Part shown: in pieces, positions 6,914 through 48,921 of the stretch
Layout: each line of letters opens with the position of its first letter
Numbering within the stretch: the stretch's first letter is position 1
Assembly: GCA_034723315.1 (NCBI GenBank)
Contig: JAYEOV010000035.1
Coordinates: forward strand, 8,329 to 72,328
DNA length: 64,000 nucleotides
Source of the DNA: Candidatus Omnitrophota bacterium
Lineage (GTDB): Bacteria > Omnitrophota > Gorgyraeia > Tantalellales > Tantalellaceae
Reading direction: 5' to 3'
Translations under genes and position numbers: made by a program
Notes under the pieces: model-generated
Seen by the model: the letters and a program-made list of their open reading frames with translations, nothing else
Told to the model about the DNA's origin: nothing
The model's database searches: none

Positions 6914-6955
6914 CGAAAAGAAATTGCTCCAGCGGCTTTAACAATTCGCCAGAGG

Positions 6956-7003
6956 CCATTTCATAACCCCGTTAGAAAATAATTATTCTAACGGGGCGAA
7001 CGG
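6956..7003. repeat. Mini/solo copy of MITE terminal sequence (CCATTTCATAACCCCGTT ... AACGGGGCGAACGG hairpin)
   Basis: Matches the left TIR plus an inverted copy of the CCGTTCG segment of the element family seen at 26489, 33403, 42657, 48573. Confidence 0.4.
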
Positions 7004-8973: not shown

Positions 8974-9204
8974 TCACCGCCGCCAGTATCCGGGGATCCA
9001 TACATATACCCTACATTTTCGTTTCCATTTCCAGTGCCCTGGCACCCAGACAGCCCTCCTGTAAGGGCATCGGGGACGGATCTCGATCTTAAGGGGAGGA
9101 GGATCGGGTCTGTCTTTTATGATAACCGTTTTTCTCGTAGTGCATCCGCTGGTAAGGACCGCGGCAAACAAGATCATTAAAACAGCAAAATGCCCCTTTT
9201 TCAT
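8974..9204 (-). CDS. Small lipoprotein with two W-x-PG-x-W repeats
   Basis: Lipobox LTSGC; VWVPGHWKWK / YVWIPGYWRR repeats; probable start at internal Met (MKKGHF). Track ORF 8974..9216. Confidence 0.4.
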   Translation of the reverse strand: MKKGHFAVLMILFAAVLTSGCTTRKTVIIKDRPDPPPLKIEIRPRCPYRRAVWVPGHWKWKRKCRVYVWIPGYWRR

Positions 9205-9641
9205 CAGAACCTCCATTTTTCAAGTTTTCTCGTAAGCTTCCTGTATTGCCGGGGGGTAAGGATCTCTTTTATCGCGAGCATCCCTTCTATCCGGACAAGC
9301 AGGATCTCCCCTTTTAACCTGGCAATCCTCCTCACAAGGGCGTCCACTTTCTCATGATCAACAGCATACCTTTTCATTTCTTCGCCCAGCGCTTCCATCC
9401 GGGCCTGAAGCTTGAGCGCCAGCTCTTTCAATATTCTTCTCTGCCTTCTTCGCTGCCTGTCGATCTGCCGTTCCTGTTTCGCGGCAAGGTCAAGTTCATC
9501 GAGGACGTCGTCTATCGTTTCCTCCTTTCTCTCCCATCCCTTGCTCTTTCCTTCGCAGGGATAAGCCCGGGCATCTACCGACGTAAGAAGCAGTGCGGCT
9601 ATCAGCATGGGGACTAATATTTTCGATCTTCTCATCTTCAT
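9204..9641 (-). CDS. Periplasmic LTXXQ-motif protein (Spy/CpxP family)
   Basis: Signal peptide MKMRRSKILVPMLIAALLL, coiled-coil, LTPRQ motif. Start is reassigned to ATG 9641 (good SD AGGAGG) because a sigmaE-type promoter lies inside the track ORF N-term (track ORF 9204..9698 uses a TTG). Confidence 0.6.
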   Translation of the reverse strand: MKMRRSKILVPMLIAALLLTSVDARAYPCEGKSKGWERKEETIDDVLDELDLAAKQERQIDRQRRRQRRILKELALKLQARMEALGEEMKRYAVDHEKVDALVRRIARLKGEILLVRIEGMLAIKEILTPRQYRKLTRKLEKWRF

Positions 9642-9663: not shown

Positions 9664-9693
9664 TTAGACAGAAGGAAAGGGAAAAAAAGTTCC
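9664..9693 (-). promoter_or_regulatory. ECF sigmaE-type promoter GGAACTT-N17-GTCTAA
   Basis: Minus-strand GGAACTTtttttcccttccttctGTCTAA about 20 nt upstream of SD/ATG of the LTXXQ gene. Same motif as at 32237 and 33335. Confidence 0.5.
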
Positions 9694-9768: not shown

Positions 9769-12700
9769 TTACGCGCAGATAGTTAGAATTGTATCCTGAA
9801 GATGATGTGTATCCTCGATATCATCCACGATCGGCGGGCAACTGTCAAAATCGGAGAAGAGCTTCTTGATGAGTTCTTCAAGGTTTTCATTTGTCGTGTT
9901 AATGATAATGTCGAATCGTTCGCCCGAAGTCAACCGTTCTTTAAGCTCGTCCGCGTCTCTGGCAGTGACGATATCACCTTTGAATCCTATAACCTTGAGT
10001 TTTCTTATCCCTTCTTCAAAATCGCTTCCATATACCAGGGCCACCTTATTGGCCGAGGCTATCTGCAGTTCCAGGGCTTTCTCATTTCTGGGAAGACTCA
10101 CTTTTAACGCTTCTTTTATATGACAAAATTTTTCATCCATGCGCATCGTTTTCGACATTATCCCTGAGATCAGGCCTTCATCTTCCAGCTGCACAAACCG
10201 TTCATCACCTACCGCATGGCCGGTGGAAATAAGGATCGGGAACTTATGGCCTCTTTCCCGGACTTTTTTCGTCAATATCAAGCCGTCAATAATATCACTT
10301 CCCCTGGCCGGCGGCATGCTCACGTCAAATATGGCAAGGTGGAACTTTAACCCCGCTTTTTCCGCCTCTTCTATCAGATCAAAGGCTTCCTGACCATTCA
10401 CGGCCAGCCAGACATTACAGCCTTCCTCCTCAAGCATGCTTTTAAACTGGTCTCTCTGGAGAAGCTCATCGTCAGCAACGATAATATTCGGCCTGTCTTT
10501 TACGATCTCCTCCGGCTTCCCGTGCAATTCTTCTTCTTCTTCTTCCATCTTAACCGGGACTCGTCTTTTACCCGGCTCAGCTTCCGCCTGCCGCAGATAA
10601 GGAATAAACATCCTGACCGCGGAACCGTCCTTCTCATTGTCAACCGTTATCCTTCCGGCAAGATACGTCAGTATCCTGTGAGCAAGCGCCAGTGAAATAT
10701 TTTTATTTTTCTCCCATTTAAGAACTTCTGCTCCCTTTTCCCCGGCTCCGAGCTCTACCCTTTCCAACTGGCTCTCAGTAAACCGGCAGTAATTATTTCT
10801 GAAAGAAACAATTACTTCTCCGCTTCTTCTGTTACGCTCGAGTTTTATGCTTAATCGTTTTTCCTGCGGATCCAGTCCCTCAACCGGGACCTCGTTAGTT
10901 TCCATCCCAAGGGTCAGGATGTTATATAATGCGAATTTAAAGGCCGCTTCGTCGGCCATGATGAAAATATCCTCTTCCGGCCGGTATAATGTCTCGACTT
11001 CATCAAAGGTGATCGTATATTGCGGGAAAAACCTTTTTGATTTCTTGAATGCAGACGCGATATCCTTAAGGACTTTTGCCACTTCTACCTGCCCCGGCTT
11101 TTTCTCAAAGCTGTCTCCTGCCGGCAGCAGAAGGCGCCCGTCGTCGATTCTTTCTTGTGTCGTGTGGAAACCTGTATATATCTTCTCAATATATTGCCTT
11201 AACTTTTCATTATCAGATCCGGCTGTTTCTTTTATAAGCTTTTCAATCGACGACAACATACCTACCATATTTATCTCTATGATCCTGAGCGTTTCAGCCG
11301 GGGCAACATTTTTTAACATAGCCTGCACCTGCCTTACCGACTCTGCCAAACGAGGCTCATGTAAAGCGGTATCCAGGTCAATATCTTTCATTATGTTCTC
11401 TACCTGTTCCATCAGGTTTTTCACTTTAATGGCCAGGACCGGATCAACGCTCTCCATTGCGGTCTGCATTTGTTTTACCAGGATCATCGCATCTTTAGCC
11501 TGGAGAAGATCAGTCGGGTCCTTGAGGATAATTGTCGGTATATTCTGCATCATCCTTATCATGTTTACTGCCTCATCCATCTGTCCGCTGATCAATTTGC
11601 ACTTTGCCAGGATATCCTCAGGCAGGTCCGGCATAAAAGTCATTATCAATTCAAGATAACCTCTACTTCCGGCTATCGCGTTGTTAAGGTCATGCCACAA
11701 GCTGCCGTATATGTTGTCCTGCGCTTCAGACGCACGGAGTTTTATCCTGTCCAGTCGACGTTCAACCAGAGGGAATTCCATTGTAAATGTCGTCCCGTGC
11801 CCTAACTGACTTTTCGCTTCCGCTGTGCCGTTATGCTCCTGGGCGACATCCCTGACGACAACAAGCCCAAGGCCGGTCCCCATACCGTCATCCCTTTTCG
11901 TATAAAAGGGTTCCCAGATATTTTGCAGGTCTTTTGCCGTGATCCCGCATCCTGTATCTCTAAAAGATACACGCATTACGTCCCTGCCTTTCTCATCCTT
12001 TGTTTTTTCCGTACCGAGAGTCAATTCCTTTGTCTTCGAGTCTCTCATAAACGATACAGCATTCATGATAATGTTAAGGAAAGCCTGTCTTAACCTGCTT
12101 CTATTGGCAATGACCACCTGCCGGTGTTCGCTTAATTCCAGTTTTACCGTTATACCCATACTCTCTATCATTGTCTTTCTCATCTCCAGGACATCCAGCA
12201 GGACTTCTTCGACGGAACAGGGGAGGTTCCCCAAATCCGGCGATCTCGCGAAGCCCAGAAACCTGTCCGTGATATCGGCAATACGCTCTGCTTCCTGTTC
12301 AATAATCGCCAGCGTCCGGATAATCTCTTCCTCTTCCACAAATCCCCCTTTGTACAGGCGGGTGAGGATCCCGTCAACAATATTAATTATGTTAGACGTG
12401 GGATTGTTTATCTCGTGAGTCAGCGCCGCTGTGTTTTCTCCGATCGCTGTAAGCCTTTCAGCCTGGACCAGGAGCGCTGTCTTTTCCTCCAATTTCGCAT
12501 AGGCGTTCTTCAGGGCGTTTTCAGCCTGTCTCCGCTTTGTAATATCCTGCATCTGCACTAAAAAACCAGACGGAACGCCGTTTTCCACGGCCAGGGGCGT
12601 TACCCTGTAATCTATGAAGACCCTCCCTGACTTTGCCTCTCCGGACAATCCGGCTTTTTTAGGCTTATCAAAATCAATTTCGTTTTCGAAGCTGATACAT

Positions 12701-15405
12701 TCTCCTTTACGAACCCTGTCTTTTTCCGTACCTATGATAATATCAAGAAAATCGAAGAGATTTAATACTTCTCTTTCTTTCCCAAAATCGGCAATGCCGT
12801 TTTCTTCTAAATACGCTCTGTCTACATATAGAAACGCCTTGTTCACATAGGTCAAGCGGCCGTCAGAATCAAAACGGGCGATCCCGATCGGCGATTCTTC
12901 GGAAATTTCCCTGAATTTCTGCTCGCTCTCCCTCAACGCTATCGCCGCGTCTCTGCGCTCTTCTTCCCGTGTAACCGCTTCCGCAAGGATCCCGAAAAGT
13001 TTCATATCACTATCATCAAGTTCAACACTTTCCTTGTATAGCACACAGAGGCTTCCAACGCGCTGCCCGGCGCTATATACCGGAAATCCGATATAGGTCC
13101 TGAACCCGTACTTCGCCACATTGGGATCGGTTTTGGAATAAGCGGTCTCTTTTACATTTCTAACAATATAAGGAAGCCCTCTAAGGCCTTTTTTGATAAC
13201 ATCATAACAGATATGGCCATCCGGTTTATCAACCGGATTATAGTCAGGTGGAGTCTCCCACTGACCTACCGAGCATAACATGCCGCCTTCCATCCTGTTA
13301 TACAAAGCACAGTCTCCGTTTAAAAATTCCCCGCAGGTCCTGGTAAGTATTTGAATATTCTCGTCATAATCGGTCCCGAGCCTGAGAAGTGCGTCATTCA
13401 GCATTAAAATACGTTCTTCTGCCAGCTTGAGCTCTGTGATGTCGCTACCCACACACAGGATCCCGGAGATGTTCCCCTTGGCATCAAAAATCGGCTTATT
13501 GGTCCATGCGATGTAGACCAGTTCGCCATCCTTACGCAAATTTGCGGTCACGTTATTGACATAATACTCGGGGTATTTTCTTATATTCAGGATCATTTCC
13601 TCGAGGTCCTGTCTGGATTTTTTTGTTTCAGGCATGATCGTGCCGATCATATTCCGGCCGAGCAATTCTTTCTCCGAATAGCCCAGAAACATCCGGGTGA
13701 ACTCATTCGCGAAAGTAATTTCTCCGTTCAAGTTCATCCTCAAAATAATGCTGTTGGCGTTCTGGACCAGATCGCGGTATTTAAGTTCACTTTCCCTGAG
13801 CCTTTCTTCCGCCTGCCTACGTGCCATCCCTCTTGAAATAATATCGCCTGCCACACGGAGGATCCTCGCGTCTTTATCACACCAATCGCGGTGCTTTTCT
13901 GTGTCTTCAATACCCATATATCCGACAAGTTCTCCATCTATCGAATACAGAGGCACAATAATAAGAGAAAAAACATTCTGATCCCGCATACTCTCCTTTT
14001 CCGCGGTCGCATCCTCCGGAAGATCATCGGTGCCCCGAATAATTATGTTTTCATTGTTCCTGAGTTTTTTCATCAACCACGGGTATATGGAAGAAACCTG
14101 ATCCTTACGGTTCTCTATCTGCGGTTCTGTATCCGGATCGCACCACTCATATGTGTTATCCATTATGCTGCCGTTTTCCCGGAAGCGAAAAATATACGCC
14201 CTATTCACGTCGACCGCTCTCCCTATAATTTTGAGGATCTGATCAAGGTCAGGGATGGGGCCTTCAACGAACATACTTGATACCTGCGCAAGAGCTTTCT
14301 CTATGTCAAGACGATATGTTAATTCTTCCTCAACCTGACGCTGATCGGCAGAATAGTCTCTGGTGGTTATTTTTTCGGTAAGATCGATAAATTCCGAGAC
14401 CCTGGCCTCATTGAGCAGATTCATCTCTCTTCCTGTCAGGTTCATCTCAGAAGGGAAAGTGCCGGGAAGGTCTATTTTTCTATCGCTAAAGCATTGAACA
14501 AAACGCTTGAATATATCCTGGAACAGGTTAGACTCCTCGTGTGTAAACCCGGCTTTTGCGAATATTTCATGAACAATTGTATCGGCATTTAAATATACCA
14601 GTTCATTTGGAAGATAAATGCCGCGGCCGCCCGCATGCGGCTCTTCTAACCTGTATTCCTTCCTCGTCTCAGTGATGAGCATAAGCTGGCTAATGCTGAC
14701 AAGTTCCCTGAAGTCTCTGGAAAGCCCGGTAGATACAATATCAAGGAACGCGTAAATACAGGAAAGGGGAAGGCCATAATTTTTCTCTGTTACAATCATA
14801 CACTTGCCGGCAAGTATGGCTTCCCGGATCTTCTCGTCATGTTTTTTTTCGCTCTCCGCAGCCATGGATATCGCGCGACCTTCCAGTCTTTCGGCATACT
14901 TTAACTGTTGGAGCTTTTCGAGAAGATCCTTTTGATTTTTTTCACGTTGCGTCAAAAACGTGATCTTATATTGAGGATCCGTACCGGGACTATCGGTTAT
15001 ACAACACCAGTAATCAGCCACCCTTTCTACTGTTCCAAATGTACACGGAACCAGGCGTAATCCAGCTTTTTTGCAATTGACCGCCCGGCTGAAATAAAAC
15101 CTTATCCTAATGTCTTCTATGTTGAAATTTATGCCCAATGATGAAGCGGAGTGGTCGCCCCATTCATTCATTACGTCTATTTTTTTATTACGCATACCTG
15201 AAACAAGGACATATTCGAGTAACGCGATATCTTTGATCTCCTTGTTAAGCAAGGGAAGAAATATGGATTGCGGCGCTATGTTTCTACCAGCAAATCTCAT
15301 GGCATAAGCCGGACTTACGCTTGTTGAAGTAATCAATAATAAAACCGTAATTATTATACTGGTTGCCTTTATTATTAAGCTATTTTTTCTTTTAAACAAT
15401 ATCAT
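9769..15405 (-). CDS. Giant hybrid sensor histidine kinase (1878 aa): N-terminal unknown domain, GAF-PAS-GAF-PAS, HisKA+HATPase, second HisKA-like+HATPase, receiver, C-terminal pseudo-receiver-like domain
   Basis: H-box THEINNPTSNI; G-boxes DTGCGI...GTGLGLVVV; second H-box SLWHDLNNAIAGSRGYLEL and second ATPase-like core; REC domain IIVADDELL...FDVSMPP... Confidence 0.85.
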   Translation of the reverse strand: MILFKRKNSLIIKATSIIITVLLLITSTSVSPAYAMRFAGRNIAPQSIFLPLLNKEIKDIALLEYVLVSGMRNKKIDVMNEWGDHSASSLGINFNIEDIRIRFYFSRAVNCKKAGLRLVPCTFGTVERVADYWCCITDSPGTDPQYKITFLTQREKNQKDLLEKLQQLKYAERLEGRAISMAAESEKKHDEKIREAILAGKCMIVTEKNYGLPLSCIYAFLDIVSTGLSRDFRELVSISQLMLITETRKEYRLEEPHAGGRGIYLPNELVYLNADTIVHEIFAKAGFTHEESNLFQDIFKRFVQCFSDRKIDLPGTFPSEMNLTGREMNLLNEARVSEFIDLTEKITTRDYSADQRQVEEELTYRLDIEKALAQVSSMFVEGPIPDLDQILKIIGRAVDVNRAYIFRFRENGSIMDNTYEWCDPDTEPQIENRKDQVSSIYPWLMKKLRNNENIIIRGTDDLPEDATAEKESMRDQNVFSLIIVPLYSIDGELVGYMGIEDTEKHRDWCDKDARILRVAGDIISRGMARRQAEERLRESELKYRDLVQNANSIILRMNLNGEITFANEFTRMFLGYSEKELLGRNMIGTIMPETKKSRQDLEEMILNIRKYPEYYVNNVTANLRKDGELVYIAWTNKPIFDAKGNISGILCVGSDITELKLAEERILMLNDALLRLGTDYDENIQILTRTCGEFLNGDCALYNRMEGGMLCSVGQWETPPDYNPVDKPDGHICYDVIKKGLRGLPYIVRNVKETAYSKTDPNVAKYGFRTYIGFPVYSAGQRVGSLCVLYKESVELDDSDMKLFGILAEAVTREEERRDAAIALRESEQKFREISEESPIGIARFDSDGRLTYVNKAFLYVDRAYLEENGIADFGKEREVLNLFDFLDIIIGTEKDRVRKGECISFENEIDFDKPKKAGLSGEAKSGRVFIDYRVTPLAVENGVPSGFLVQMQDITKRRQAENALKNAYAKLEEKTALLVQAERLTAIGENTAALTHEINNPTSNIINIVDGILTRLYKGGFVEEEEIIRTLAIIEQEAERIADITDRFLGFARSPDLGNLPCSVEEVLLDVLEMRKTMIESMGITVKLELSEHRQVVIANRSRLRQAFLNIIMNAVSFMRDSKTKELTLGTEKTKDEKGRDVMRVSFRDTGCGITAKDLQNIWEPFYTKRDDGMGTGLGLVVVRDVAQEHNGTAEAKSQLGHGTTFTMEFPLVERRLDRIKLRASEAQDNIYGSLWHDLNNAIAGSRGYLELIMTFMPDLPEDILAKCKLISGQMDEAVNMIRMMQNIPTIILKDPTDLLQAKDAMILVKQMQTAMESVDPVLAIKVKNLMEQVENIMKDIDLDTALHEPRLAESVRQVQAMLKNVAPAETLRIIEINMVGMLSSIEKLIKETAGSDNEKLRQYIEKIYTGFHTTQERIDDGRLLLPAGDSFEKKPGQVEVAKVLKDIASAFKKSKRFFPQYTITFDEVETLYRPEEDIFIMADEAAFKFALYNILTLGMETNEVPVEGLDPQEKRLSIKLERNRRSGEVIVSFRNNYCRFTESQLERVELGAGEKGAEVLKWEKNKNISLALAHRILTYLAGRITVDNEKDGSAVRMFIPYLRQAEAEPGKRRVPVKMEEEEEELHGKPEEIVKDRPNIIVADDELLQRDQFKSMLEEEGCNVWLAVNGQEAFDLIEEAEKAGLKFHLAIFDVSMPPARGSDIIDGLILTKKVRERGHKFPILISTGHAVGDERFVQLEDEGLISGIMSKTMRMDEKFCHIKEALKVSLPRNEKALELQIASANKVALVYGSDFEEGIRKLKVIGFKGDIVTARDADELKERLTSGERFDIIINTTNENLEELIKKLFSDFDSCPPIVDDIEDTHHLQDTILTICA

Positions 15406-15891: not shown

Positions 15892-16181
15892 CATTATTGA
15901 ACACTCTCAAATTGGTCCAAAACTTTATGCAAAACGCGGAAGTCGGGTTAACAATCTCTTACCGTAATGAAGTAATGTTAAATTTACAATAGATAGAATA
16001 ATCCCCTTGTATATTAATAATGTTAAGGTATAGTTAATATGTTGATATTAAATGTATTTGGCTTTGTAATTTTTTACAAATTTATTAAAGGTTTGCTTAG
16101 AAGAAGAAAACAGCCTTGAAGATTTATTTTTTGGTTTTTAAAAAGTTTTTGAAAATGCCGAAACTAAAAAGGCGAATTACG

Positions 16182-17420
16182 ATGAACAAAACAAGAACAA
16201 AGAACAATGGGTTTGCCATGGCGGTCATGGCAGTAATGGTTGTCCTGGTCATGGCATGGGTGGTGATCATAACGCCTGTCCCGCGAGCGCATGCCGACGA
16301 ATGGGTAACGCGGCAAATATCGGATAATACGTATATTGACGCCGAGCCATCTCTTTATAACGGCACCATAGCCTGGGTGCACCATATACCCGCGGGAGAC
16401 TGGCAGCAACGTCATATCTACTACTGGGACGGGACCTCAACCACGCAGATAACGCCGTATGAGAAGTCGACCTACGAAGAGCCATCTCTTTATAACGGCA
16501 AGATAGCTTGGAGGGATGGTTATGTCTACTACTGGGACGGGACCTCAACCACGCAGATGCCGATTCCGGGGGGTGGTCAGCACTCCCCGTCACTTTATAA
16601 CGGCAAGATAGCCTACATTGTCGGAGGCGGTGTATTTGATGTCCACTACTGGGACGGGGGTACGGCTACAAATATATCTAATAATACGGCTGGTACTTGG
16701 TCCGGGTCCCCATCACTTTATAACGGCACCATAGCCTGGCAAACCTGGCAGGATGGTGGTTACGGTATCAACTACTGGGACGGGGGTACGACTACACAGA
16801 TATCCGTTAGTGGCGCCAACCCGTCACTTTATAACGGGACGATAGCCTGGGCGGACAATGGTATCAACTACTGGGACGGGGGTACGACTACACAGATATC
16901 CGTTAGTGGCGCCAACCCGTCACTTTATAACGGGACGATAGCCTGGGCGGGCAATGGTATCAACTACTGGGACGGGGGTACGACTACACAGATATCAGGC
17001 AGTGGCACCAACCCGTCACTTTATAACGGCGATATAACCTGGCAAGGCTCGGATGGTAATGATGATGAGATCTTTTACGCGCGGCTGGCGTCGGCGTGGA
17101 TAGGTGACGCGATAGACTCACTCGGCCTGGCAGGATACACAGAAGCGGAGATACTTGATCTTGCGGACCTGTTCAGTGGTCAGACTTCCGGTCTGGTAAA
17201 CAGCATGGACTGGACATACCTGGCAGGGAACCTTCCGGGAGATACAGGGGGCGAGGTCTATGACATAGGAAACAGCTGGGAATATGACGGTAAATACTAT
17301 ATCAAGCTGGGGAGCGGGCTTGAAGGAACCGGAGTACCTGAGCTGCCGGCAGGCGCGATACCGTTTATCGGTGCGATCTTGTGTTTTGGATTAAGACGGT
17401 TAAGACGTTTTCACAAATAA
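16182..17420 (+). CDS. Tandem-repeat secreted protein with variant PEP-CTERM-like sorting tail
   Basis: Signal peptide; ~9 repeats of PSLYNG[TK]IAW...YWDG[TG]TTTQI; C-terminus VPELPAGAIPFIGAILCFGLRRLRR (PEL-P + TM + basic cluster). Start at the internal Met (MNKTRTKNNGFAMAVMAV) instead of track 16116. Confidence 0.6.
   Translation: MNKTRTKNNGFAMAVMAVMVVLVMAWVVIITPVPRAHADEWVTRQISDNTYIDAEPSLYNGTIAWVHHIPAGDWQQRHIYYWDGTSTTQITPYEKSTYEEPSLYNGKIAWRDGYVYYWDGTSTTQMPIPGGGQHSPSLYNGKIAYIVGGGVFDVHYWDGGTATNISNNTAGTWSGSPSLYNGTIAWQTWQDGGYGINYWDGGTTTQISVSGANPSLYNGTIAWADNGINYWDGGTTTQISVSGANPSLYNGTIAWAGNGINYWDGGTTTQISGSGTNPSLYNGDITWQGSDGNDDEIFYARLASAWIGDAIDSLGLAGYTEAEILDLADLFSGQTSGLVNSMDWTYLAGNLPGDTGGEVYDIGNSWEYDGKYYIKLGSGLEGTGVPELPAGAIPFIGAILCFGLRRLRRFHK
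16764..17045 (+). repeat. 3 x 96-bp near-identical tandem DNA repeats inside the repeat-protein gene
   Basis: Units 16764..16859 and 16860..16955 differ at ~1 position; the third unit is diverged. Confidence 0.7.
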
Positions 17421-26388: not shown

Positions 26389-26488
26389 TATGAAAGAAGT
26401 GATGAAGAAGAAGACGACATTTATACTTATCGCCGCCATGATCTGTTTTCAGATTAACGGCATGGTCGGGTTTTGCCCAGTACATTAC

Positions 26489-26606
26489 TAGAACCCATTT
26501 CATAACCCCGTTCGTTACGAGGCTGAGCGAAAAGGCCATTGACAAGGCCTGAGGGGCAAAATGCCCGGAAACGTAGCCGTTGCGCTACGTTGATGATATT
26601 TTGTCC
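26489..26606 (+). mobile_element. MITE-like element copy (left TIR + core, right end truncated)
   Basis: AGAACCCATTTCATAACCCCGTTCGTTACGAGGCTGAGCGAAAAGGCCATTGACAAGGCCTGAGGGGCAAAATGCCCGGAAACGTAGCC...GCTACGTTGA core shared with the 48573 copy. Confidence 0.55.
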
Positions 26607-26650
26607 GGATAGCAGGGAACCTTTTCACGGTCCCGGAGTAGGGAGCAAAA

Positions 26651-31293: not shown

Positions 31294-31609
31294 TTGGCTC
31301 TTTAATAACCTGTAAGGATCAAAACCCGTGCGGTTCTTTTTTTATTCAGTTTGCGGACACTTTGTTCGCGAGGCGCCTCATCCACATCGTTGTCACCATG
31401 GCGAGTAACCTGGAAGATGCGTTTTTCAAGACCGGCTGCTTTCGGGTTTTATTATACAGTATACCAGGAGCTGTAAAAAGAAATAATTTCTGGCGGCGTG
31501 ATGAATTGCGGGCTGCGGCAAGCCCCTCTCACCGCGCTGAAAGAGGGGCCTTCCTTTATAATCGGAGTAAAGTTCCACGGACTTACGTCCGCGGAACTTT
31601 AAAGGTGCA

Positions 31610-32110
31610 TTAGAACCTTTCCCTGAACCTTCCCCAGTGAGATTTCCGGCCGTGATCGCGCCGGTGGTGTTTTCTTTCCTCTTTGAGTTCCATGAACTCC
31701 TCGAACTGATCGGGGGTCAAGATCTTTTTCATGTCCAGGAAGTTATCCACCCTTTGATCTATCTGTTTCGCCTGCAGCTTTTTCATGTCGGATACGACCC
31801 TTTTTATTTTTTTTCTGCTGGAGTAGGTTTCCTGCAGCTCTTCGCTGAGATCATGGCGTGTATCTCTCAGTTCTTCCATCAGAGCTTTCATCATTTCCCT
31901 GTTCTCCCGGCGGAGTTCTTTGAGCTGTTCTCTTTGTTTTGGGGACAGGTCAAGCCTTTCCGATATCTTGTCGAATATCTCCGATCTTCGAGCGTTCATT
32001 CCTTCCGGACCGTCCCCGCCATAGGATGGTTGCGAATATGCCGCCGGAGCCGCGCACAGAACCGTGATCACAGCCAGGATGACCGACAATTTCAATACCG
32101 TGTTCTTCAT
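31610..32110 (-). CDS. Periplasmic LTXXQ-motif protein (Spy/CpxP family)
   Basis: Signal peptide, coiled-coil, LTPDQ motif; paralogue of 9204..9641. Confidence 0.6.
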   Translation of the reverse strand: MKNTVLKLSVILAVITVLCAAPAAYSQPSYGGDGPEGMNARRSEIFDKISERLDLSPKQREQLKELRRENREMMKALMEELRDTRHDLSEELQETYSSRKKIKRVVSDMKKLQAKQIDQRVDNFLDMKKILTPDQFEEFMELKEERKHHRRDHGRKSHWGRFRERF

Positions 32111-32236
32111 TTTTTCCTCCTTCTTTTTGTCTTTCTCAATTCTGTCCCTTCACTGCTGGATCCCCGCTTCCGCGGGGATTAAATTCGCATTATGATTTAC
32201 TCTCATTTCAATCGCGTAAATCATGTGCTCATTTAA

Positions 32237-32265
32237 CTTAGACAGAAGGAGATCCAAAATAGTTC
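32237..32265 (-). promoter_or_regulatory. ECF sigmaE-type promoter GGAACTA-N16-GTCTAA
   Basis: Minus strand GGAACTAttttggatctccttctGTCTAA upstream of the LTXXQ gene 31610..32110. Confidence 0.5.
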
Positions 32266-32271
32266 CCTCTA

Positions 32272-32287
32272 TGAACCCATTTCATAA
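32272..32287. repeat. Solo MITE terminal inverted repeat (GAACCCATTTCATAAC)
   Basis: Identical to the left TIR of the element family; overlaps the stop codon of the anti-sigma gene. Confidence 0.45.
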
Positions 32288-32767
32288 CAAAAAATCCTCC
32301 ATCGGGATGCCTATATCCGTATAAGAGCCGTTCTCCCGGTCCCCGTTGTTTAGCGCGTCAATGAATGAGAGCTGTTCCTCAAGATACATGTTAAGCGAGG
32401 CCCTGTCGAAGAGGTACGTCCTGGCGACTAATGCCGCTATAACGATAAGTATGGATGCCGTCAGCACGGCGAACGCGGGTTTTCTCTCAGCAAGGATCTC
32501 CCGGAGGCGCTCTCTTAAACCGGAGAGCGGGCTCTCGGGCCGGTTCGCCTCAATGACGCCTTTTATGCCGTGCCAGGTCTCTTCAGGGGGCTGCAGGCGC
32601 TCCGCTCTCTTCAGTGGATCCACGGCTGCGTCACGGACGATCTGCAGCAACTCCCCGCAACGGGGACACGACCTTATGTGGTCTTCGACGACCTTCCTCT
32701 GACCGGGATCAAGTTCTCCGTCTATGTAGTCTGTCAGGATCATTTTCCGTATTTTTCCGCATTTCAT
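32282..32767 (-). CDS. Zinc-finger (zf-HC2) anti-sigma factor, membrane-spanning
   Basis: HIRSCPRCGELL motif near N-term, single TM helix, 4-nt overlap with the upstream ECF sigma gene. Confidence 0.6.
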   Translation of the reverse strand: MKCGKIRKMILTDYIDGELDPGQRKVVEDHIRSCPRCGELLQIVRDAAVDPLKRAERLQPPEETWHGIKGVIEANRPESPLSGLRERLREILAERKPAFAVLTASILIVIAALVARTYLFDRASLNMYLEEQLSFIDALNNGDRENGSYTDIGIPMEDFLL

Positions 32768-32769
32768 GG

Positions 32770-33318
32770 CTACCCCCTTTTCCGGTATCGGGAGATAAGT
32801 TTTTCACGGGCTCTCTTGAGCCTGGTCCTTACCGTATTTATCTTTATGTTAAGGGTCTCGGCGATCTCTTCATACTTCAACCCCTCGATCTCTTTCAGTA
32901 CCAGACATGCTCTCTGCTCGTCGGGCAGGCTGTTCAGCATGGACCTTACAAGATCCTGGCTGTGTTCTTTTTCAAGCAGGTCCGTTCCGGTTTCTTGAAC
33001 GGGTCCGGCGTCTATCGCGTCATCGAAAGCGACCGTTCTCGCGCGCTCTTTTGACCTTTTCCTGTATACGTTGATCGCCTTGTTCGTGGTTATCCTGTAT
33101 ATCCAGGTCTTGAAAGAGGACTTGAACCGGAATTTCGAGAGGTTCCTGTAAACGCTCACGAAAACGTCCTGGGTAACTTCCTGAGCGTCCTCCCTTCTGC
33201 CTGTAACCCTGAAAGCTATTGTATATACGTAGCCGGAGGCCCTTCTGTATATCTCTTCAAAAGCGTGCATATCGCCTTCAGACGCTTTTATTATTATTTC
33301 CTCTGGTATCGGCTGCAT
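32770..33318 (-). CDS. ECF (sigma-24/sigmaE-like) RNA polymerase sigma factor
   Basis: Region 2 (DMHAFEEIYRR...YVYTIAFRVTG) and region 4 HTH (YEEIAETLNIKINTVRTRL). Start is reassigned to the internal ATG because the promoter -10 lies inside the track ORF N-term (track 32770..33351). Confidence 0.8.
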   Translation of the reverse strand: MQPIPEEIIIKASEGDMHAFEEIYRRASGYVYTIAFRVTGRREDAQEVTQDVFVSVYRNLSKFRFKSSFKTWIYRITTNKAINVYRKRSKERARTVAFDDAIDAGPVQETGTDLLEKEHSQDLVRSMLNSLPDEQRACLVLKEIEGLKYEEIAETLNIKINTVRTRLKRAREKLISRYRKRG

Positions 33319-33334
33319 TTTCCCCTCTATTATA

Positions 33335-33363
33335 TTAGACAAAGGGAGCATCGAAAAAGTTCC
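33335..33363 (-). promoter_or_regulatory. Autoregulatory ECF sigmaE-type promoter GGAACTT-N16-GTCTAA
   Basis: Minus strand GGGAACTTtttcgatgctccctttGTCTAAtataatagaggggaaaATG; classic sigmaE spacing. Confidence 0.55.
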
Positions 33364-33402
33364 CCGGTAGTGCGTATTATATCATACGCACCCCGCTTTT
33401 CT

Positions 33403-33700
33403 AGAAGCCATTTCATAACCCGGTTCGTAACGAGGCTGAGCGAAAAAGCCTTTAGCCCTTCGACTCAGGCCCCGGCTTTAGCCGGGGCCTTCGCTCCCTT
33501 CGGCTTCGCTCAGGGCAAGCAGGATTCCGCCCCACCCGGGCGGTAAGGGTGGTGCCCCGGGTTTGCCGGGGGCTCCACAAAGCCTGAGCGGCAAAAAGCC
33601 CGGAAACGTAGCCCCAATCTGCTACGTTGAGGACTTTTTGCTGCGAAAACGCAGCTAACGGCTTTTGCAGCCAGCCGCAGTAGAACAGGGTTTTGTAGTT
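33403..33700 (+). mobile_element. MITE-like element, long variant (~300 bp) with GC-rich insert module
   Basis: Left TIR AGAAGCCATTTCATAACCCGGTTCGTAACGAGGCTGAGCGAAAAAGCC..., internal CCGGAAACGTAGCC...CTACGTTGA hairpin, right end TTTTGCAGCCAGCCGCAGTAGAACAGGGTT. Confidence 0.55.
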
Positions 33701-33980: not shown

Positions 33981-34088
33981 TAGAAGTTCTGGGGACACGC
34001 CTGTTATAGGCGATAAGCAGACACTACTGAAGTTCCGGGGACACGCTTGTTGTATATGCCTATTTTGCTCGCCCAAGCATGTCCCCGG
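33981..34088 (+). repeat. Structured ~110-bp repeat element (family 2), copy 1
   Basis: Contains 2 x GAAGTTC[TC]GGGGACACGCYTGTT plus inverted CATGTCCCCGG. About 80% identical to the reverse complement of 44792..44905. Confidence 0.5.
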
Positions 34089-34240
34089 AATATATTTTTA
34101 TACATAACCGATAACAGATAACCCATAACCGAGATACCCATAGCGAGCATACGTGCACAATACGAGATACCCAAAGCGAGCAAACACGCACCATACCCGG
34201 CACCCAAAACCAGACTTTGCGCCTGCTTCAACATCCACCC

Positions 34241-41243: not shown

Positions 41244-41420
41244 CTTTTTTAATATTAATAATAGTTATATACACCTTAAATAATATTATTATAGCGGCAT
41301 TTTCAAGTTTGACCACTGTGGGCCGTAGACAATTGACAATAGGCCGATCAGCGGGTCTTTTCTATTTCAAGTATTTCTACCGGTACGCCCCAGGAATGAA
41401 AAAGGAACTTTCTTTCTAGG

Positions 41421-41467
41421 CCCCGTTCGTTACGAGGCTGAGCGAAAAGGCCATTGACAAGGCCTGA
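41421..41467 (+). repeat. MITE core fragment (CCCCGTTCGTTACGAGGCTGAGCGAAAAGGCCATTGACAAGGCCTGA)
   Basis: Identical to the core of copies at 26489 and 48573; no TIRs. Confidence 0.5.
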
Positions 41468-41483
41468 CACCAATAAAATATTA

Positions 41484-42606: not shown

Positions 42607-42656
42607 TAATCTTTTTTATAAAAAAGCCAATTTTAACCTTTATTATTATTGACTAT

Positions 42657-42838
42657 AACCCCGTTCGTTACGAGGCTGAGCGAAAAAAGCATTGACAAGG
42701 CCTGAGGGGTGGAGCCCCGCGGACTGAAGTCCACGGCTCCTTTTTCTGCGGGATCTCACCTGTAGGGCGAAATCCCGAAAACGCAGCCAATGGGTTTTGC
42801 AGCCAGCCGCAGTAAAACAGGGTTATGAAATGGGTTCT
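42657..42838 (+). mobile_element. MITE-like element copy (left TIR missing, right TIR intact)
   Basis: Core CCCCGTTCGTTACGAGGCTGAGCGAAAAAAGCATTGACAAGGCCTGAGG, GC-rich hairpin insert, right end TTTTGCAGCCAGCCGCAGTAAAACAGGGTTATGAAATGGGTTCT. Confidence 0.55.
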
Positions 42839-43069
42839 AAAGAAGAACTGGAGAATATCTTTGACAAGCACAAAAAACTTTACACGGCTAAAGAAAAACT
42901 GGGGCCTGGACTTGCGATCATACAGGATATTGTGAACATGCACAAAGGAAAAATCTGGGCCGAAAGCAACCCCAAGAAAGGTAACAGGTTTATTGTAGAA
43001 CTCCCCAAAAACATAGCATCAAAAAGCTGCGCCCTTAAGTGGATTCACTCCTCGTCGTCCACTTTATAA
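42830..43069 (+). pseudogene. Sensor histidine kinase C-terminal fragment (HATPase_c G2 box only)
   Basis: ...ELENIFDKHKKLYTAKEKLGPGLAIIQDIVNMHKGKIWAESNPKKGNRFIVELPKN; begins exactly at the ATG within the MITE right TIR; the rest of the kinase is absent. Confidence 0.5.
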
Positions 43070-44767: not shown

Positions 44768-44791
44768 CGTAAACCTCATTGTTTTGTTAAA

Positions 44792-44905
44792 AATATATTC
44801 TGGGGACATGCCTGGGCGAGCAAAATTAGCGTCTACAACAGGCGTGTCCCCGGAACTTCATCAATGCCATAGTGTCGTCTGCAACAAGCGTGTCCCCAGA
44901 ACTTC
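44792..44905 (-). repeat. Structured ~110-bp repeat element (family 2), copy 2 (inverted relative to copy 1)
   Basis: ATATATTCTGGGGACATGCCTGGGCGAGCAAAAT...CAACAGGCGTGTCCCCGGAACTTC...CAACAAGCGTGTCCCCAGAACTTC. Confidence 0.5.
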
Positions 44906-44948
44906 CTGAGCATAGCCGAAGGGTCAGTCGCGTAAGCCATGCGCTCAT

Positions 44949-45455
44949 TTAACTTGTTATTCTGTAAATCACTATCGAAAGCATGGCAAAGGCTATCACC
45001 AGTTTAGCCGCTATTGACCCTAACCTTCCCAGGACCCCTCCCGTACCTGCCTTCATTGACTTGATCAGATCCCTCTGAAGAATCAATTCTACCAGAAAAG
45101 CGCCTAGAAAAATACCCAAAAATGTTCCTGCGATCAGCCCAACTCCAAAAAATGCCGTTCCCGCAACCGCTCCGAGAACACCGCCAATAATGGCCCCAAA
45201 AACAGCCGCGTTGGATGCCCCCAGATTCTTGGCGCCCAGAACAATAAAAACGTATTCCAGGACCTCGCCAAAAAGGTATAAAGCGCACAGGATCACAAGT
45301 ACTTTCAGTGTGATAACTGAAAATCCTGTCATCAGCGCGTAAAGAATTGTGCCGACCAAGATCAACAGGGTCCCGAACGTAGTGAAGAAGATGGCGATAA
45401 TACCGGCCAATGTGAATATCAACAATACTGATAAGGCCAGAATATTCATGATCAT
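44949..45455 (-). CDS. DUF456 family membrane protein
   Basis: 168 aa Gly-rich polytopic membrane protein with the DUF456-like pattern. Confidence 0.55.
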   Translation of the reverse strand: MIMNILALSVLLIFTLAGIIAIFFTTFGTLLILVGTILYALMTGFSVITLKVLVILCALYLFGEVLEYVFIVLGAKNLGASNAAVFGAIIGGVLGAVAGTAFFGVGLIAGTFLGIFLGAFLVELILQRDLIKSMKAGTGGVLGRLGSIAAKLVIAFAMLSIVIYRITS

Positions 45456-48029: not shown

Positions 48030-48581
48030 TTATATATTACGCCCCTCTTTTTTGGCCTTTATATATTCCGGAGGCACATTTTTTGCAAGGAATAGTTTTC
48101 CTTCCCTGTAGAACTTTATATCTTTAAGGGCCGCCTCTTTTGCCATTACCTCCAGAATAACCGGAGTCTGAGCATGCCGCATGCCGACCATGTATGCATC
48201 TTTCTCGTTCGAGCTGAGATGGACGAACTGCCTGCTCATGGGCTTCAGGCCTTCTGCAAGAATCTTTTCAAGATCTTCCGGAGATGTTCCGTGATAGAGA
48301 ACTTCCGGAGGTATTATACTTTCCGAGCCGGGCCGGACTTCGAGGGAATGGCCGTAAGTGGCCCTTATCTTTTTTGCCGAGACCTCAAAACGCCCTTTCG
48401 GTTCATTTTTTACGAGTTCAAAAAGGTCCTCTTCCTTAAACTTCCTGAATCTTTTCCTGAGGACCCGCAGGACATCGGCTAACGGGGCGTACCCACACCC
48501 GTCCAGCTCAAGATCCCAGCTGCCGGGATCATGACGAAGTATATATGACAGGAACTTGCTCAGTTTTATCTTAGAAACCAT
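48030..48581 (-). CDS. kptA: RNA 2'-phosphotransferase KptA/Tpt1
   Basis: SKFLSYILRHDPG...LDG.GYA N-terminus, YHGTS, VHLS motifs. The start codon lies inside the MITE left TIR. Confidence 0.75.
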   Translation of the reverse strand: MVSKIKLSKFLSYILRHDPGSWDLELDGCGYAPLADVLRVLRKRFRKFKEEDLFELVKNEPKGRFEVSAKKIRATYGHSLEVRPGSESIIPPEVLYHGTSPEDLEKILAEGLKPMSRQFVHLSSNEKDAYMVGMRHAQTPVILEVMAKEAALKDIKFYREGKLFLAKNVPPEYIKAKKEGRNI

Positions 48582-48752
48582 TTCATAACCCGGTTCGTAA
48601 CGAGGCTGAACGAAAAAGTCATTGACAAGGCCTGAGGGGCAAAATGCCCGGAAACGTAGCCGGTGCGCTACGTTGAGGACATTTTACCCCGAAAACGCAG
48701 TCAATGACTTTTGCAGCCAGCCGCAGTAGAACGGTGTTATGAAATGGTTTCT
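48573..48752 (+). mobile_element. Complete MITE-like element (180 bp) with 17-19-bp terminal inverted repeats
   Basis: Left AGAAACCATTTCATAACCC; right GGTGTTATGAAATGGTTTCT; core GGTTCGTAACGAGGCTGAACGAAAAAGTCATTGACAAGGCCTGAGGGGCAAAATGCCCGGAAACGTAGCCGGTGCGCTACGTTGA. Confidence 0.65.
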
Positions 48753-48921
48753 ATAGCTTGACACCTTGCCGTCTACCATCTGCTGGCCGCACGTCCTGCT
48801 ACATTGCTCGGCCAATTTTGTCAAATGTTGACAGGCTGACCAGGAATATAAATTTTCAAAAATTAGATATTAAAAATAAAGGACTTACAACAATAATCTA
48901 TTCGAAAAAGGCTATTCTCGG

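What the first reader, a model, noticed from the sequence alone, without database searches (positions are those of the whole stretch)
31610..33363. Envelope-stress regulon: ECF sigma / zf-HC2 anti-sigma / LTXXQ chaperone with three matching sigmaE-type promoters, one at a distant paralogue
The same -35/-10 architecture occurs three times on the minus strand: upstream of the sigma gene (GGAACTT-N16-GTCTAA, 33335..33363), upstream of LTXXQ gene 31610..32110 (GGAACTA-N16-GTCTAA, 32237..32265), and 23 kb away upstream of the second LTXXQ gene 9204..9641 (GGAACTT-N17-GTCTAA, 9664..9693). That last gene sits just downstream of the giant sensor kinase. The spacer immediately upstream of the -10 element is also similar (CCTTCT-GTCTAA) at the two LTXXQ promoters. 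Two of the promoters lie inside the ORF-track N-termini, which argues for re-annotated, shorter start sites with good SD sequences. This defines a small autoregulated sigmaE-like regulon whose outputs are Spy/CpxP-like periplasmic proteins.
Basis: partly seen in the sequence, partly recalled or inferred. Interest (0 to 1): 0.6.

Follow-up and report, generated by a model that had tools for sequence, protein, structure and literature searches.

The report
ECF sigma envelope-stress module with three promoters
An uncultured Omnitrophota bacterium carries a small stress-response switch (a sigma factor, its membrane inhibitor and a Spy-like periplasmic protein). The switch appears to turn on itself and two Spy-like genes through one shared promoter sequence; the feature is real and conserved, but it is of an already catalogued kind.

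Summary
GGAACTW-N16/17-GTCTAA occurs exactly three times in 64 kb, against 0.01 expected.

The protein calls are correct: an ECF sigma, a zf-HC2 single-pass anti-sigma, and two Metal_resist/LTXXQ proteins closest to Spy.

Comparative data support function:
- The sigma / anti-sigma / LTXXQ cassette is present in all 20 related loci examined, while the flanking genes differ.
- The motif or a one-base variant precedes the sigma gene in 17 of those 20.
- A second copy precedes the LTXXQ gene in most of them.
- All 32 strict copies in about 300 kb lie upstream of a same-strand gene.
- Positions I did not search for are also conserved (GGAACTTTT; TGTCTAA).

The motif equals the E. coli sigmaE consensus, but the sigma is not an RpoE orthologue. 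The gene context matches group ECF281 of the 2021 ECF classification, and GenBank already uses the short start codons.

This is a new member of a known kind, of modest interest. One question stays open: the always-linked LTXXQ protein may also be the periplasmic partner of the anti-sigma's conserved tail.

The parts
33335..33363 (-). Predicted ECF-type promoter of the sigma/anti-sigma operon (GGAACTT-N16-GTCTAA); autoregulation site
   Evidence: Exact motif match. The same motif or a one-base variant lies 14-80 nt upstream of the sigma orthologue in 17 of 20 related loci.
33376..33403 (-). Candidate housekeeping (sigma-70 type) promoter with an extended -10 (TGATATAAT), just upstream of the ECF promoter
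   Evidence: Consensus scan gives 10 of 12 matches with a TG before the -10. A TGnTATAAT element sits at the same place in L081 and L086. This is inference only.
32770..33318 (-). ECF (group IV) sigma factor gene, 182 aa
   Evidence: Sigma70_r2 and Sigma70_r4_2 domains. TIGR02937 scores 114 bits against a cut-off of 42.9. 100% identical to a GenBank Omnitrophota protein of 182 aa.
32282..32767 (-). Single-pass zinc-finger (ZAS) anti-sigma factor gene, 161 aa, with a ~42-residue periplasmic tail ending in FLL
   Evidence: zf-HC2 scores 37.9 bits against a cut-off of 22.2. C3 and H30-x3-C34-x2-C37 are present. The tail motif EEQ..F..L...GT.IE[ED]YFL-COOH is conserved in 21 orthologues.
32238..32266 (-). 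Predicted ECF-type promoter of LTXXQ1 (GGAACTA-N16-GTCTAA), in the gap after the anti-sigma stop codon
   Evidence: A second motif copy lies at the equivalent place before the LTXXQ gene in L002, L004, L008, L011, L013, L014, L081, L084, L086, L088, L090 and L092.
32111..32237 (-). Unusually long 5' leader of LTXXQ1 with two stable hairpins; the ribosome-binding site is left unpaired
   Evidence: RNA fold gives -27.4 kcal/mol, z = -4.2. The leader is only 4-50 nt in most relatives. Bases 32208-32239 resemble 44924-44955 (88%).
31610..32110 (-). LTXXQ1: secreted Spy/CpxP/ZraP-superfamily protein, 166 aa
   Evidence: Metal_resist 48.9 bits and LTXXQ 34.7 bits, both above their cut-offs. The orthologue profile hits Spy at E = 2e-8. 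The top 22 fold matches are all ZraP, CpxP, CnrX/NccX or STV. GenBank names it 'Spy/CpxP family protein refolding chaperone'.
31568..31601 (-). 34-nt palindrome directly after the LTXXQ1 stop codon; probable transcript end, without a T-tract
   Evidence: Self-complementary at 88%; sequence read. Function is inferred.
9664..9693 (-). Predicted ECF-type promoter of the LTXXQ2 operon (GGAACTT-N17-GTCTAA)
   Evidence: It sits in the 127-nt gap between the kinase stop (9769) and the LTXXQ2 ATG (9641).
9204..9641 (-). LTXXQ2: divergent secreted paralogue of LTXXQ1, 145 aa, 28% identity
   Evidence: Metal_resist scores 30.2 bits against a cut-off of 29.2. BLASTP against LTXXQ1 gives E = 1e-9. Identical to a GenBank hypothetical protein of 145 aa.
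8974..9204 (-). Small lipoprotein with a WXXGXW repeat; its start overlaps the LTXXQ2 stop (TGATG), so it is probably co-transcribed
   Evidence: WXXGXW scores 24.8 bits against a cut-off of 18. Weak BcpO-like match. The overlap is read from the sequence.

Best explanation
This is a three-gene envelope-stress signalling module of an Omnitrophota bacterium, and the three motifs are its target promoters. The proposed mechanism runs as follows.

1. The ECF sigma factor is held at the membrane by its zinc-finger, single-pass anti-sigma factor (inferred from the families).
2. An envelope signal inactivates the anti-sigma, most likely through its short conserved periplasmic tail and regulated proteolysis (inferred).
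3. The freed sigma directs RNA polymerase to promoters of the form GGAACTTTT-N13/14-TGTCTAA.
4. In this window those promoters drive three units. The first is its own operon (positive autoregulation, on top of a probable basal sigma-70 promoter). The second is the adjacent Spy-like gene LTXXQ1. The third is the distant LTXXQ2-lipoprotein operon.
5. The LTXXQ proteins are secreted helical-hairpin proteins closest to the ATP-independent chaperone Spy. They would protect or refold periplasmic proteins.
6. Because LTXXQ1 is linked to the sigma/anti-sigma pair in every relative, it probably also feeds back on the anti-sigma, as CpxP does on CpxA (speculative).

What is shown: the motif, its placement and its conservation, and the protein families. 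What is inferred: the sigma-promoter pairing, the signal and the chaperone activity.
For: - Chance is excluded: 3 matches against 0.01 expected, and no extra sites appear with relaxed patterns.
- Only one ECF sigma and two LTXXQ genes lie in the window, and both LTXXQ genes carry the motif.
- Protein families are confirmed.
- The sigma / ZAS anti-sigma / LTXXQ cassette is present in all 14 related genome loci and 6 metagenome contexts, with unrelated flanking genes.
- The motif or a one-base variant lies upstream of sigma in 17 of 20 relatives, and a second copy lies before LTXXQ in 12.
- 32 strict instances were found in ~300 kb on both strands, and every one lies upstream of a same-strand gene. 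28 of 32 have identical overall length.
- Positions left free in the search are conserved: TTTT after GGAAC, and an invariant T before GTCTAA.
- An unanchored metagenome scan for an 18-base version found the downstream gene to be an ECF sigma in 18 of 97 cases and a Metal_resist/LTXXQ protein in 5. Most of the rest were secreted or envelope proteins.
- The motif equals the E. coli sigmaE consensus GGAACTTTT / GGTCAAAA (PMC1312014; PMC1540707). The region 4.2 recognition helix is conserved: TVRTRLKRARE here against TVRSRIFRARE in RpoE.
- The LTXXQ profile is closest to Spy, and the fold matches are confined to the CpxP/Spy/ZraP/CnrX superfamily.
Against: - There are no transcription data: no start site, no demonstration that this sigma rather than another ECF sigma of the genome reads these promoters, and no known inducing signal.
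- The same motif is used by a more distant ECF lineage (~32% identity) linked to VIT-vWA proteins. Specificity is therefore not proven by the motif alone.
- Only 64 kb of the genome was available, so the regulon is incompletely known.
- The structure model comes from a two-sequence alignment (pLDDT 76), and the Foldseek E-values are weak (0.016-0.3).
- Chaperone activity is inferred from family membership only. LTXXQ1 scores far below the Spy and CpxP equivalog cut-offs.
Confidence: 0.8

Rival explanations
1. LTXXQ1 is mainly the periplasmic sensor or co-regulator of the switch, not a stress-relief output. In this reading it binds the anti-sigma's conserved periplasmic tail and controls the tail's stability. 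Unfolded proteins or another ligand titrate it away. The arrangement would parallel CnrX-CnrY-CnrH or CpxP-CpxA. This rival overlaps with the best explanation rather than excluding it.
For: - Synteny of LTXXQ with sigma/anti-sigma is 100% in 20 loci, and in L003, L006, L009 and L012 it lies in the same operon with no promoter of its own.
- The anti-sigma's periplasmic part is only ~42 residues, yet it has a conserved motif ending in YFL-COOH.
- The predicted fold superposes on CnrX/NccX at least as well as on Spy (TM 0.56-0.63 against 0.38).
- Casas-Pastor et al. note that in such contexts regulators and targets cannot be told apart (PMC7826278).
Against: - There is no interaction evidence.
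- LTXXQ1 has its own strong promoter in most genomes, as expected for an abundant output.
- A second, unlinked paralogue (LTXXQ2) carries the same promoter, which fits an output better.
- By sequence the family is closest to Spy (E = 2e-8) and far from CnrX (E = 0.44).
Confidence: 0.35
2. The module is a heavy-metal sensor, as the Pfam name 'Heavy-metal resistance' and the ECF281 description suggest. LTXXQ1 would bind Zn, Ni or Co as ZraP or CnrX do, and would switch on metal defence.
For: - The best Pfam match is Metal_resist PF13801.
- The ECF281/290/291 groups are described as probably related to heavy-metal stress (PMC7826278).
- LTXXQ1 has a His-rich C-terminal tail (KHHRRDHGRKSH).
- TolC-like outer-membrane efflux proteins carry the motif in two relatives (L005, L006).
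- The top fold match is ZraP.
Against: - No His, Cys or Met is conserved in the mature core of 14 orthologues. Only the two LTXXQ motif positions are invariant, and the His-rich tail is not conserved.
- No metal efflux pump or metal-binding gene lies next to the cassette in the window or in the six metagenome contexts.
- The sigma is much closer to SigE, SigW and RpoE than to CnrH (2e-28 to 5e-22 against 3e-11).
Confidence: 0.12
3. The three sites are read by a different ECF sigma encoded elsewhere in the genome, for example a true RpoE-type factor. The adjacency to this sigma gene would then be cross-regulation rather than autoregulation.
For: The motif is the generic sigmaE-type consensus. 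It is also used by a ~32%-identical ECF lineage in metagenomes. Only 64 kb of the genome is visible.
Against: The motif travels with this sigma's orthologues across many genomes and is placed at a fixed short distance from their start codons. That is the signature of autoregulation typical of ECF sigmas. No second ECF sigma lies in the window.
Confidence: 0.06
4. The three matches are a chance recurrence of a short AT-rich pattern with no function.
For: The pattern was defined after seeing the sites, so the window statistic alone is optimistic.
Against: The expectation is 0.01 against 3 observed. All three sites have the right strand and position. Independent conservation is seen in 20 other loci and in the metagenome scan.
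Confidence: 0.01

Closest known systems
ECF group ECF281 of the ECF classification 2.0 (Casas-Pastor et al. 2021, PMC7826278)
   Same: The gene context matches the published description: an ECF sigma, a zinc-finger anti-sigma at +1 and a PF13801 'heavy-metal resistance' protein at +2.
   Different: Assignment by the ECF Hub models could not be run. The group is described as related to metal stress, whereas no metal ligands are conserved here. No member of the group appears to have been studied experimentally.
E. coli sigmaE (RpoE)-RseA-RseB envelope stress response
   Same: The promoter consensus is nearly identical (GGAACTTTT / GTCAAA, 16-nt spacing). Both have an autoregulated operon of sigma plus a membrane anti-sigma plus a periplasmic partner. 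Both have outputs that are envelope proteins, including, in relatives and in the metagenome scan, HtrA-type proteases and outer-membrane proteins.
   Different: The sigma scores 104 bits against an RpoE equivalog cut-off of 236. The anti-sigma is the zinc-finger type with a 42-residue tail, not RseA. There is no RseB. In E. coli, spy, cpxP and zraP are controlled by two-component systems, not by sigmaE (my knowledge of the E. coli systems).
CnrH-CnrY-CnrX of Cupriavidus metallidurans (ECF291)
   Same: An ECF sigma, a small single-pass anti-sigma with a short periplasmic tail, and a periplasmic helical protein of the same fold superfamily. CnrX and NccX are among the best fold matches (TM 0.56-0.63).
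   Different: Gene order differs, CnrY is not a zinc-finger anti-sigma, and no adjacent efflux operon is present. The CnrX metal ligands are not conserved. Both the sigma and the LTXXQ sequences are distant from CnrH and CnrX.
Spy / CpxP / ZraP periplasmic stress proteins of enterobacteria
   Same: Two LTXXQ motifs, a signal peptide, a helical hairpin fold and induction by an envelope-stress regulator. Spy is the closest solved relative.
   Different: The protein is under an ECF sigma instead of the Cpx, Bae or Zra two-component systems. It scores far below the Spy and CpxP equivalog cut-offs, so it is a superfamily member and not an orthologue.
Bacillus subtilis sigmaW-RsiW
   Same: An ECF sigma with a zinc-finger, single-pass anti-sigma in an autoregulated operon. 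SigW is the second closest solved sigma.
   Different: RsiW has a larger extracytoplasmic domain, there is no linked LTXXQ gene, and the -10 element is different (my knowledge).

Membership tests
ECF (group IV) sigma factors | Only sigma regions 2 and 4, about 180-200 aa | tested here: met
   Sigma70_r2 and Sigma70_r4_2 are the only sigma domains in 182 aa. TIGR02937 scores 114 bits against a cut-off of 42.9.
RpoE (ECF02) orthologues | Passes the RpoE equivalog model | tested here: not met
   TIGR02939 scores 104 bits against a cut-off of 236.
RpoE (ECF02) orthologues | RseA-type anti-sigma encoded downstream | tested here: not met
   The downstream gene is zf-HC2 and gives no RseA match.
sigmaE-type promoter | -35 GGAACTT and -10 TC(A/T)AA separated by about 16 nt | tested here: met
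   compared with PMC1312014 and PMC1540707.
sigmaE-type promoter | Transcription starts 5-8 nt after the -10 and depends on the sigma | not testable with these tools
   No transcript data exist for this uncultured organism.
ECF281 (ECF classification 2.0) | Zinc-finger anti-sigma at position +1 | tested here: met
   zf-HC2 with H-x3-C-x2-C, in the window and in 20 relatives.
ECF281 (ECF classification 2.0) | PF13801 protein at position +2 | tested here: met
ECF281 (ECF classification 2.0) | Sigma sequence assigned to the group by the ECF Hub models | not testable with these tools
   The models and supplementary tables are not available. The sigma is only distantly similar to CnrH of the sister group.
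ZAS (zinc-binding) anti-sigma factors | N-terminal H-x3-C-x2-C motif plus an upstream Cys or His | tested here: met
   C3, H30, C34 and C37 are present, and the motif is conserved in all 21 aligned orthologues. Zinc binding itself was not tested.
Spy/CpxP/ZraP (LTXXQ) superfamily | Passes the Pfam LTXXQ and Metal_resist models and has two LTXXQ motifs | tested here: met
   LTXXQ1 scores 34.7 and 48.9 bits, both above the cut-offs. Its motifs are LSPKQ and LTPDQ. LTXXQ2 passes Metal_resist only, at 30.2 bits against 29.2. Motif positions are invariant in 14 orthologues.
Spy/CpxP/ZraP (LTXXQ) superfamily | Helical hooked-hairpin fold | tested here: inconclusive
   The model is all-helical (pLDDT 76, two-sequence alignment). 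The 22 best PDB matches are all superfamily members, but with weak E-values of 0.016-0.3.
Spy (orthologue, ATP-independent chaperone) | Passes the Spy equivalog model; chaperone activity | tested here: not met
   NF007769 scores 33.7 bits against a cut-off of 174. Chaperone activity cannot be tested here.
CnrX-type metal sensor | Conserved His/Glu/Met metal ligands in the helical core | tested here: not met
   No invariant or near-invariant His, Met or Cys in 14 orthologues. The profile E-value against CnrX is 0.44.

The most novel reading that the evidence does not exclude
The module may be a chaperone-gated ECF switch. In this reading the Spy-like protein is the periplasmic input device. It binds the anti-sigma's 42-residue tail, which ends in a conserved acidic-YFL carboxy terminus, and shields that tail from a PDZ-type protease. 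Unfolded envelope proteins titrate the chaperone away, which triggers release of the sigma. The sigma-driven burst of new chaperone then resets the switch. This would merge the logic of the Cpx pathway (CpxP titration) with that of the sigmaE pathway (regulated proteolysis) in one three-gene cassette conserved across Omnitrophota and neighbouring candidate phyla.
Probability: 0.25. Interest if true: 0.55.

Novelty: new member of a known kind. Interest (0 to 1): 0.3.

Why it matters
The finding gives a concrete, testable regulatory circuit for Omnitrophota, a phylum with no cultured model and almost no studied gene regulation. The circuit consists of one sigma factor, its promoter consensus, and a first list of targets: Spy-like proteins and a WXXGXW lipoprotein in this window, plus glycine-zipper proteins, DUF6515 proteins and TolC-like proteins in relatives.

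The promoter matches E. coli sigmaE closely. The parts could therefore probably be tested in E. coli and might serve as another sigma/anti-sigma/promoter set for synthetic circuits. The finding also supplies the first promoter-level support I found for an ECF group (ECF281-like context) that has no characterised member in the searched literature. It suggests that the 'heavy-metal' label of that group may be misleading.

It does not change any general concept. Autoregulated ECF modules with linked periplasmic partners are well known.

Tried and rejected
- Searches for close homologues of LTXXQ1 and LTXXQ2 in the 5.8-billion-protein index returned only the proteins themselves. I therefore took orthologues from the loci found with the sigma instead.
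I used the two window paralogues instead, which limits model quality.
- Rfam found no known RNA family anywhere in the window. The structured LTXXQ1 leader is therefore not a known riboswitch or small RNA.
- Literature searches for a characterised ECF-LTXXQ system or for ECF281 gave nothing beyond the classification paper. Its supplementary tables, which hold the predicted group motifs, are not held.
- I tested whether the cassette extends to more distant ECFs. Among 66 loci at 32-41% sigma identity, only one (WOR-3, L022) has an LTXXQ gene nearby, and its architecture differs. The cassette is therefore specific to the clade at or above ~44% identity.
- I considered a functional link between the giant hybrid kinase and LTXXQ2. 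The kinase has only cytoplasmic-type sensory domains (GAF, PAS) and nothing ties it to the LTXXQ gene beyond adjacency, so I did not pursue this.
- The partial similarity between the end of the anti-sigma gene (32269-32288) and the terminus of the dispersed repeat is of borderline significance (E = 0.007-0.19), and I did not interpret it.
Full report
**The observation**

The pattern GGAACTW-N16/17-GTCTAA occurs exactly three times in the 64-kb window, all on the minus strand: at 33335-33363, 32238-32266 and 9664-9693. Dinucleotide-preserving shuffles give 0.01 matches on average, and none of 100 shuffles reached three. Looser versions of the pattern find nothing more.

The three sites share more than the searched bases. 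Each has an extra G before GGAAC and a T-run after it. The two LTXXQ promoters share CCTTCTGTCTAA (13 of 13 identical bases).

Each site lies upstream of a same-strand gene:
- 16 nt before the ATG of the sigma gene (33318);
- 127 nt before LTXXQ1 (32110), in the gap just after the anti-sigma stop codon (32282);
- 22 nt before LTXXQ2 (9641), in the gap after the stop codon of the giant kinase (9769).

Two sites fall inside the longest mechanical ORFs. The shorter starts are exactly the ones used in the public record: the 182-, 166- and 145-residue proteins are each 100% identical over full length to GenBank entries from a 'Candidatus Omnitrophota bacterium' contig of 76,077 bases. No re-annotation is therefore needed.

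**The genes**

The sigma has only regions 2 and 4 and passes the general ECF model. It fails every equivalog model, including RpoE (104 bits against a cut-off of 236).

The next gene starts two bases after the sigma stop. It encodes a 161-residue zf-HC2 anti-sigma with C3 and H30-x3-C34-x2-C37, one membrane helix and a periplasmic tail of about 42 residues.

LTXXQ1 and LTXXQ2 both have signal peptides, judged from the sequence. LTXXQ1 passes both Pfam models, Metal_resist and LTXXQ; LTXXQ2 passes Metal_resist only. The two are 28% identical.

The LTXXQ2 stop codon overlaps the start codon (TGATG) of a 76-residue lipoprotein with a WXXGXW repeat, so that gene is very probably on the same transcript. 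The window contains no other ECF sigma and no other LTXXQ gene.

**Comparative evidence**

The sigma has hundreds of relatives of about 185 residues, mostly from Omnitrophota.

A scan of one genome per species returned 14 loci at 44-55% identity. These come from Omnitrophota and from MAGs labelled Nitrospiraceae, Endomicrobiales, Desantisbacteria, Planctomycetia and Pseudomonadota. The scan also returned 66 loci at 32-41% identity. Six further contexts at 55-71% identity came from metagenome contigs.

All 20 close loci carry the same three genes in the same order, while the flanking genes differ. Among the 66 distant loci only one has an LTXXQ gene nearby, and its layout is different.

In 17 of the 20 close loci the motif or a one-base variant (GTAAC, GAAAC, GTCTTA, GTCAAA) lies 14-80 nt upstream of the sigma start. 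In 12 of them a second copy lies between the anti-sigma and LTXXQ genes. In L003, L006, L009 and L012 the LTXXQ gene abuts the anti-sigma gene with no promoter of its own, so it is served by the operon promoter.

About 300 kb, counted on both strands, holds 32 strict matches, and every one precedes a same-strand gene. 28 of the 32 have the same overall length of 29 nt. Positions that the search left free are conserved: TTTT after GGAAC, and an invariant T before GTCTAA.

Other genes preceded by the motif in relatives encode envelope proteins: TolC-like outer-membrane proteins, glycine-zipper proteins, a DUF6515 protein and a weak LTXXQ-like coiled coil.

**Unanchored check**

I scanned the metagenome collection for an 18-base version of the motif, GGAACTTTTT-N10-12-TTGTCTAA. 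Of 97 downstream proteins of at least 60 residues:

| Downstream protein | Count |
|---|---|
| ECF sigma | 18 |
| VIT-vWA protein | 16 |
| Metal_resist/LTXXQ | 5 |
| DUF6515 | 3 |
| DUF4139 | 3 |
| HtrA-type protease | 2 |
| ExbD | 2 |
| OEP (outer-membrane efflux protein) | 1 |

Seventeen of the loci carry a sigma at 41-58% identity to the one in the window. Others carry a sigma at about 32% identity, often next to the VIT-vWA genes. The motif is thus a real ECF promoter type, but it is shared by at least two ECF lineages. The pairing of these three sites with the adjacent sigma is therefore the most economical reading, not a proven one.

**Relation to known systems**

The motif matches the E. 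coli sigmaE consensus: -35 GGAACTTTT and -10 (T/C)GGTCAAAA (PMC1312014; PMC1540707). The recognition helix of region 4.2 is conserved, with TVRTRLKRARE here against TVRSRIFRARE in RpoE. By sequence the sigma is closest to M. tuberculosis SigE, then B. subtilis SigW and E. coli RpoE, and far from CnrH.

The gene context is the one described for group ECF281 in the 2021 ECF classification: a zinc-finger anti-sigma at +1 and a PF13801 protein at +2. That paper suggests a link to heavy-metal stress (PMC7826278). I could not run the group's own models, and I found no characterised member.

**What the LTXXQ proteins are**

A profile of 14 orthologues ranks the solved structures in this order:

| Solved structure | E-value |
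|---|---|
| Spy | 2e-8 |
| Salmonella STV protein | 3e-6 |
| ZraP | 2e-3 |
| CpxP | 0.3 |
| CnrX | 0.44 |

A structure model of moderate confidence (pLDDT 76, two-sequence alignment) is all-helical. Its 22 best PDB matches are all ZraP, CpxP, CnrX/NccX or STV, with weak E-values.

In the orthologue alignment only the two LTXXQ motif positions are invariant. No His, Cys or Met is conserved, and the His-rich tail of LTXXQ1 is not shared. This argues against a CnrX- or ZraP-like metal site and for a Spy-like protein. LTXXQ1 is nonetheless far below the Spy equivalog cut-off, so it is a superfamily member and not an orthologue.

**Mechanism**

The best-supported reading is an autoregulated ECF envelope-stress module. 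The zinc-finger anti-sigma holds the sigma, and a periplasmic signal releases it. The sigma then transcribes its own operon, LTXXQ1 and the LTXXQ2-lipoprotein operon.

A conserved extended -10 element (TGnTATAAT) lies 8-10 nt upstream of the -35 in the window, in L081 and in L086. This suggests a basal housekeeping promoter in tandem with the ECF promoter.

Two features suggest that the LTXXQ protein may also act on the anti-sigma, as CpxP acts on CpxA or CnrX on CnrY. One is the strict linkage of LTXXQ1 to the pair. The other is the conserved tail motif of the anti-sigma, EEQ..F..L...GT.IE[ED]YFL-COOH. This remains speculative.

**Verdict**

The system is a new member of a known kind: an ECF sigma / ZAS anti-sigma / LTXXQ module with ECF281-like context and a sigmaE-type promoter. 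Interest is modest. Its value is as a ready-to-test circuit for an uncultured phylum, and in the open question of whether the chaperone-like protein is also the sensor.

Noticed in passing
window 33397-33692; also 26473-26609, 41417-41471, 42655-42851, 48556-48753; fragment 6951-6978: A dispersed intergenic repeat family of about 140-300 nt with inverted termini (TAGAAnCCATTTCATAACCCnGTTC ... GAACnGnGTTATGAAATGGnTTCTA), which looks like a MITE. One copy ends ~35 nt upstream of the sigma gene's ECF promoter, and its terminus supplies the TAGAAA '-35' of the candidate sigma-70 promoter.
   Followed up: partly
window 32269-32288: The last codons of the anti-sigma gene and the bases just before the LTXXQ1 -35 element resemble the terminus of that repeat family (16-21 nt, 90-100% identity, E = 0.007-0.19). 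This may be chance or a remnant.
   Followed up: no
window 32111-32237; 44924-44955: The LTXXQ1 leader is ~127 nt with two stable hairpins (z = -4.2) and an unpaired ribosome-binding site. Relatives mostly have leaders of 4-50 nt. Bases 32208-32239 are 88% identical to 44924-44955, at the end of another gene. There is no Rfam match.
   Followed up: partly
window 33983-34100 and 44788-44905: A 118-nt inverted repeat pair (83% complementary) lies 10.7 kb apart. It contains repeated GAAGTTCYGGGGACACGC units and appears to be a second dispersed element.
   Followed up: no
window 33376-33403; L081 and L086 just upstream of their sigma promoters: A conserved extended -10 (TGnTATAAT) lies 8-10 nt upstream of the ECF -35, suggesting tandem housekeeping and ECF promoters. 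In the window it sits within a palindrome, GCGTATGATATAATACGC.
   Followed up: partly
C-termini of the LTXXQ orthologues (A2) and anti-sigma orthologues: Seven of the eight LTXXQ proteins in the closest group end in Phe or Trp, including both window paralogues (...RERF...KWRF). None of the six LTXXQ proteins from the 44-55% loci does. Nearly all the anti-sigma factors end in an acidic residue followed by YFL, FFL or FLL. Such carboxy termini are typical ligands of PDZ-domain proteases.
   Followed up: partly
metagenome loci such as L095, L110, L111, L136, L171: The same 18-base promoter pattern precedes ~790-residue secreted VIT-vWA proteins in 16 of 97 cases, next to ECF sigmas only ~32% identical to the window's sigma. 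A second ECF lineage therefore shares this promoter type.
   Followed up: partly
window 9769-15405 (minus strand): An 1878-residue hybrid histidine kinase: a signal-like N-terminus, ~380 residues with no family match, then GAF-PAS-GAF-PAS-HisKA-HATPase, a long unassigned stretch and a receiver domain. It lies directly upstream of LTXXQ2, but no functional link was found.
   Followed up: partly
window 16300-17072, within ORF 16116-17420 (plus strand): Tandem 96-nt repeats (three copies at 83-99% identity, plus more degenerate units) lie inside a 434-residue ORF with no Pfam match. This is a repeat protein of unknown type.
   Followed up: no
window 7166-7322 and 7373-7529, within ORF 7026-7553 (plus strand): An internal 157-nt duplication (79% identity) gives a two-repeat small membrane protein.
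   Followed up: no
window 31568-31601: A 34-nt palindrome follows the LTXXQ1 stop codon directly. Its stem contains GGAACTTT and it has no T-tract, so it is a probable transcript end or processing site.
   Followed up: no
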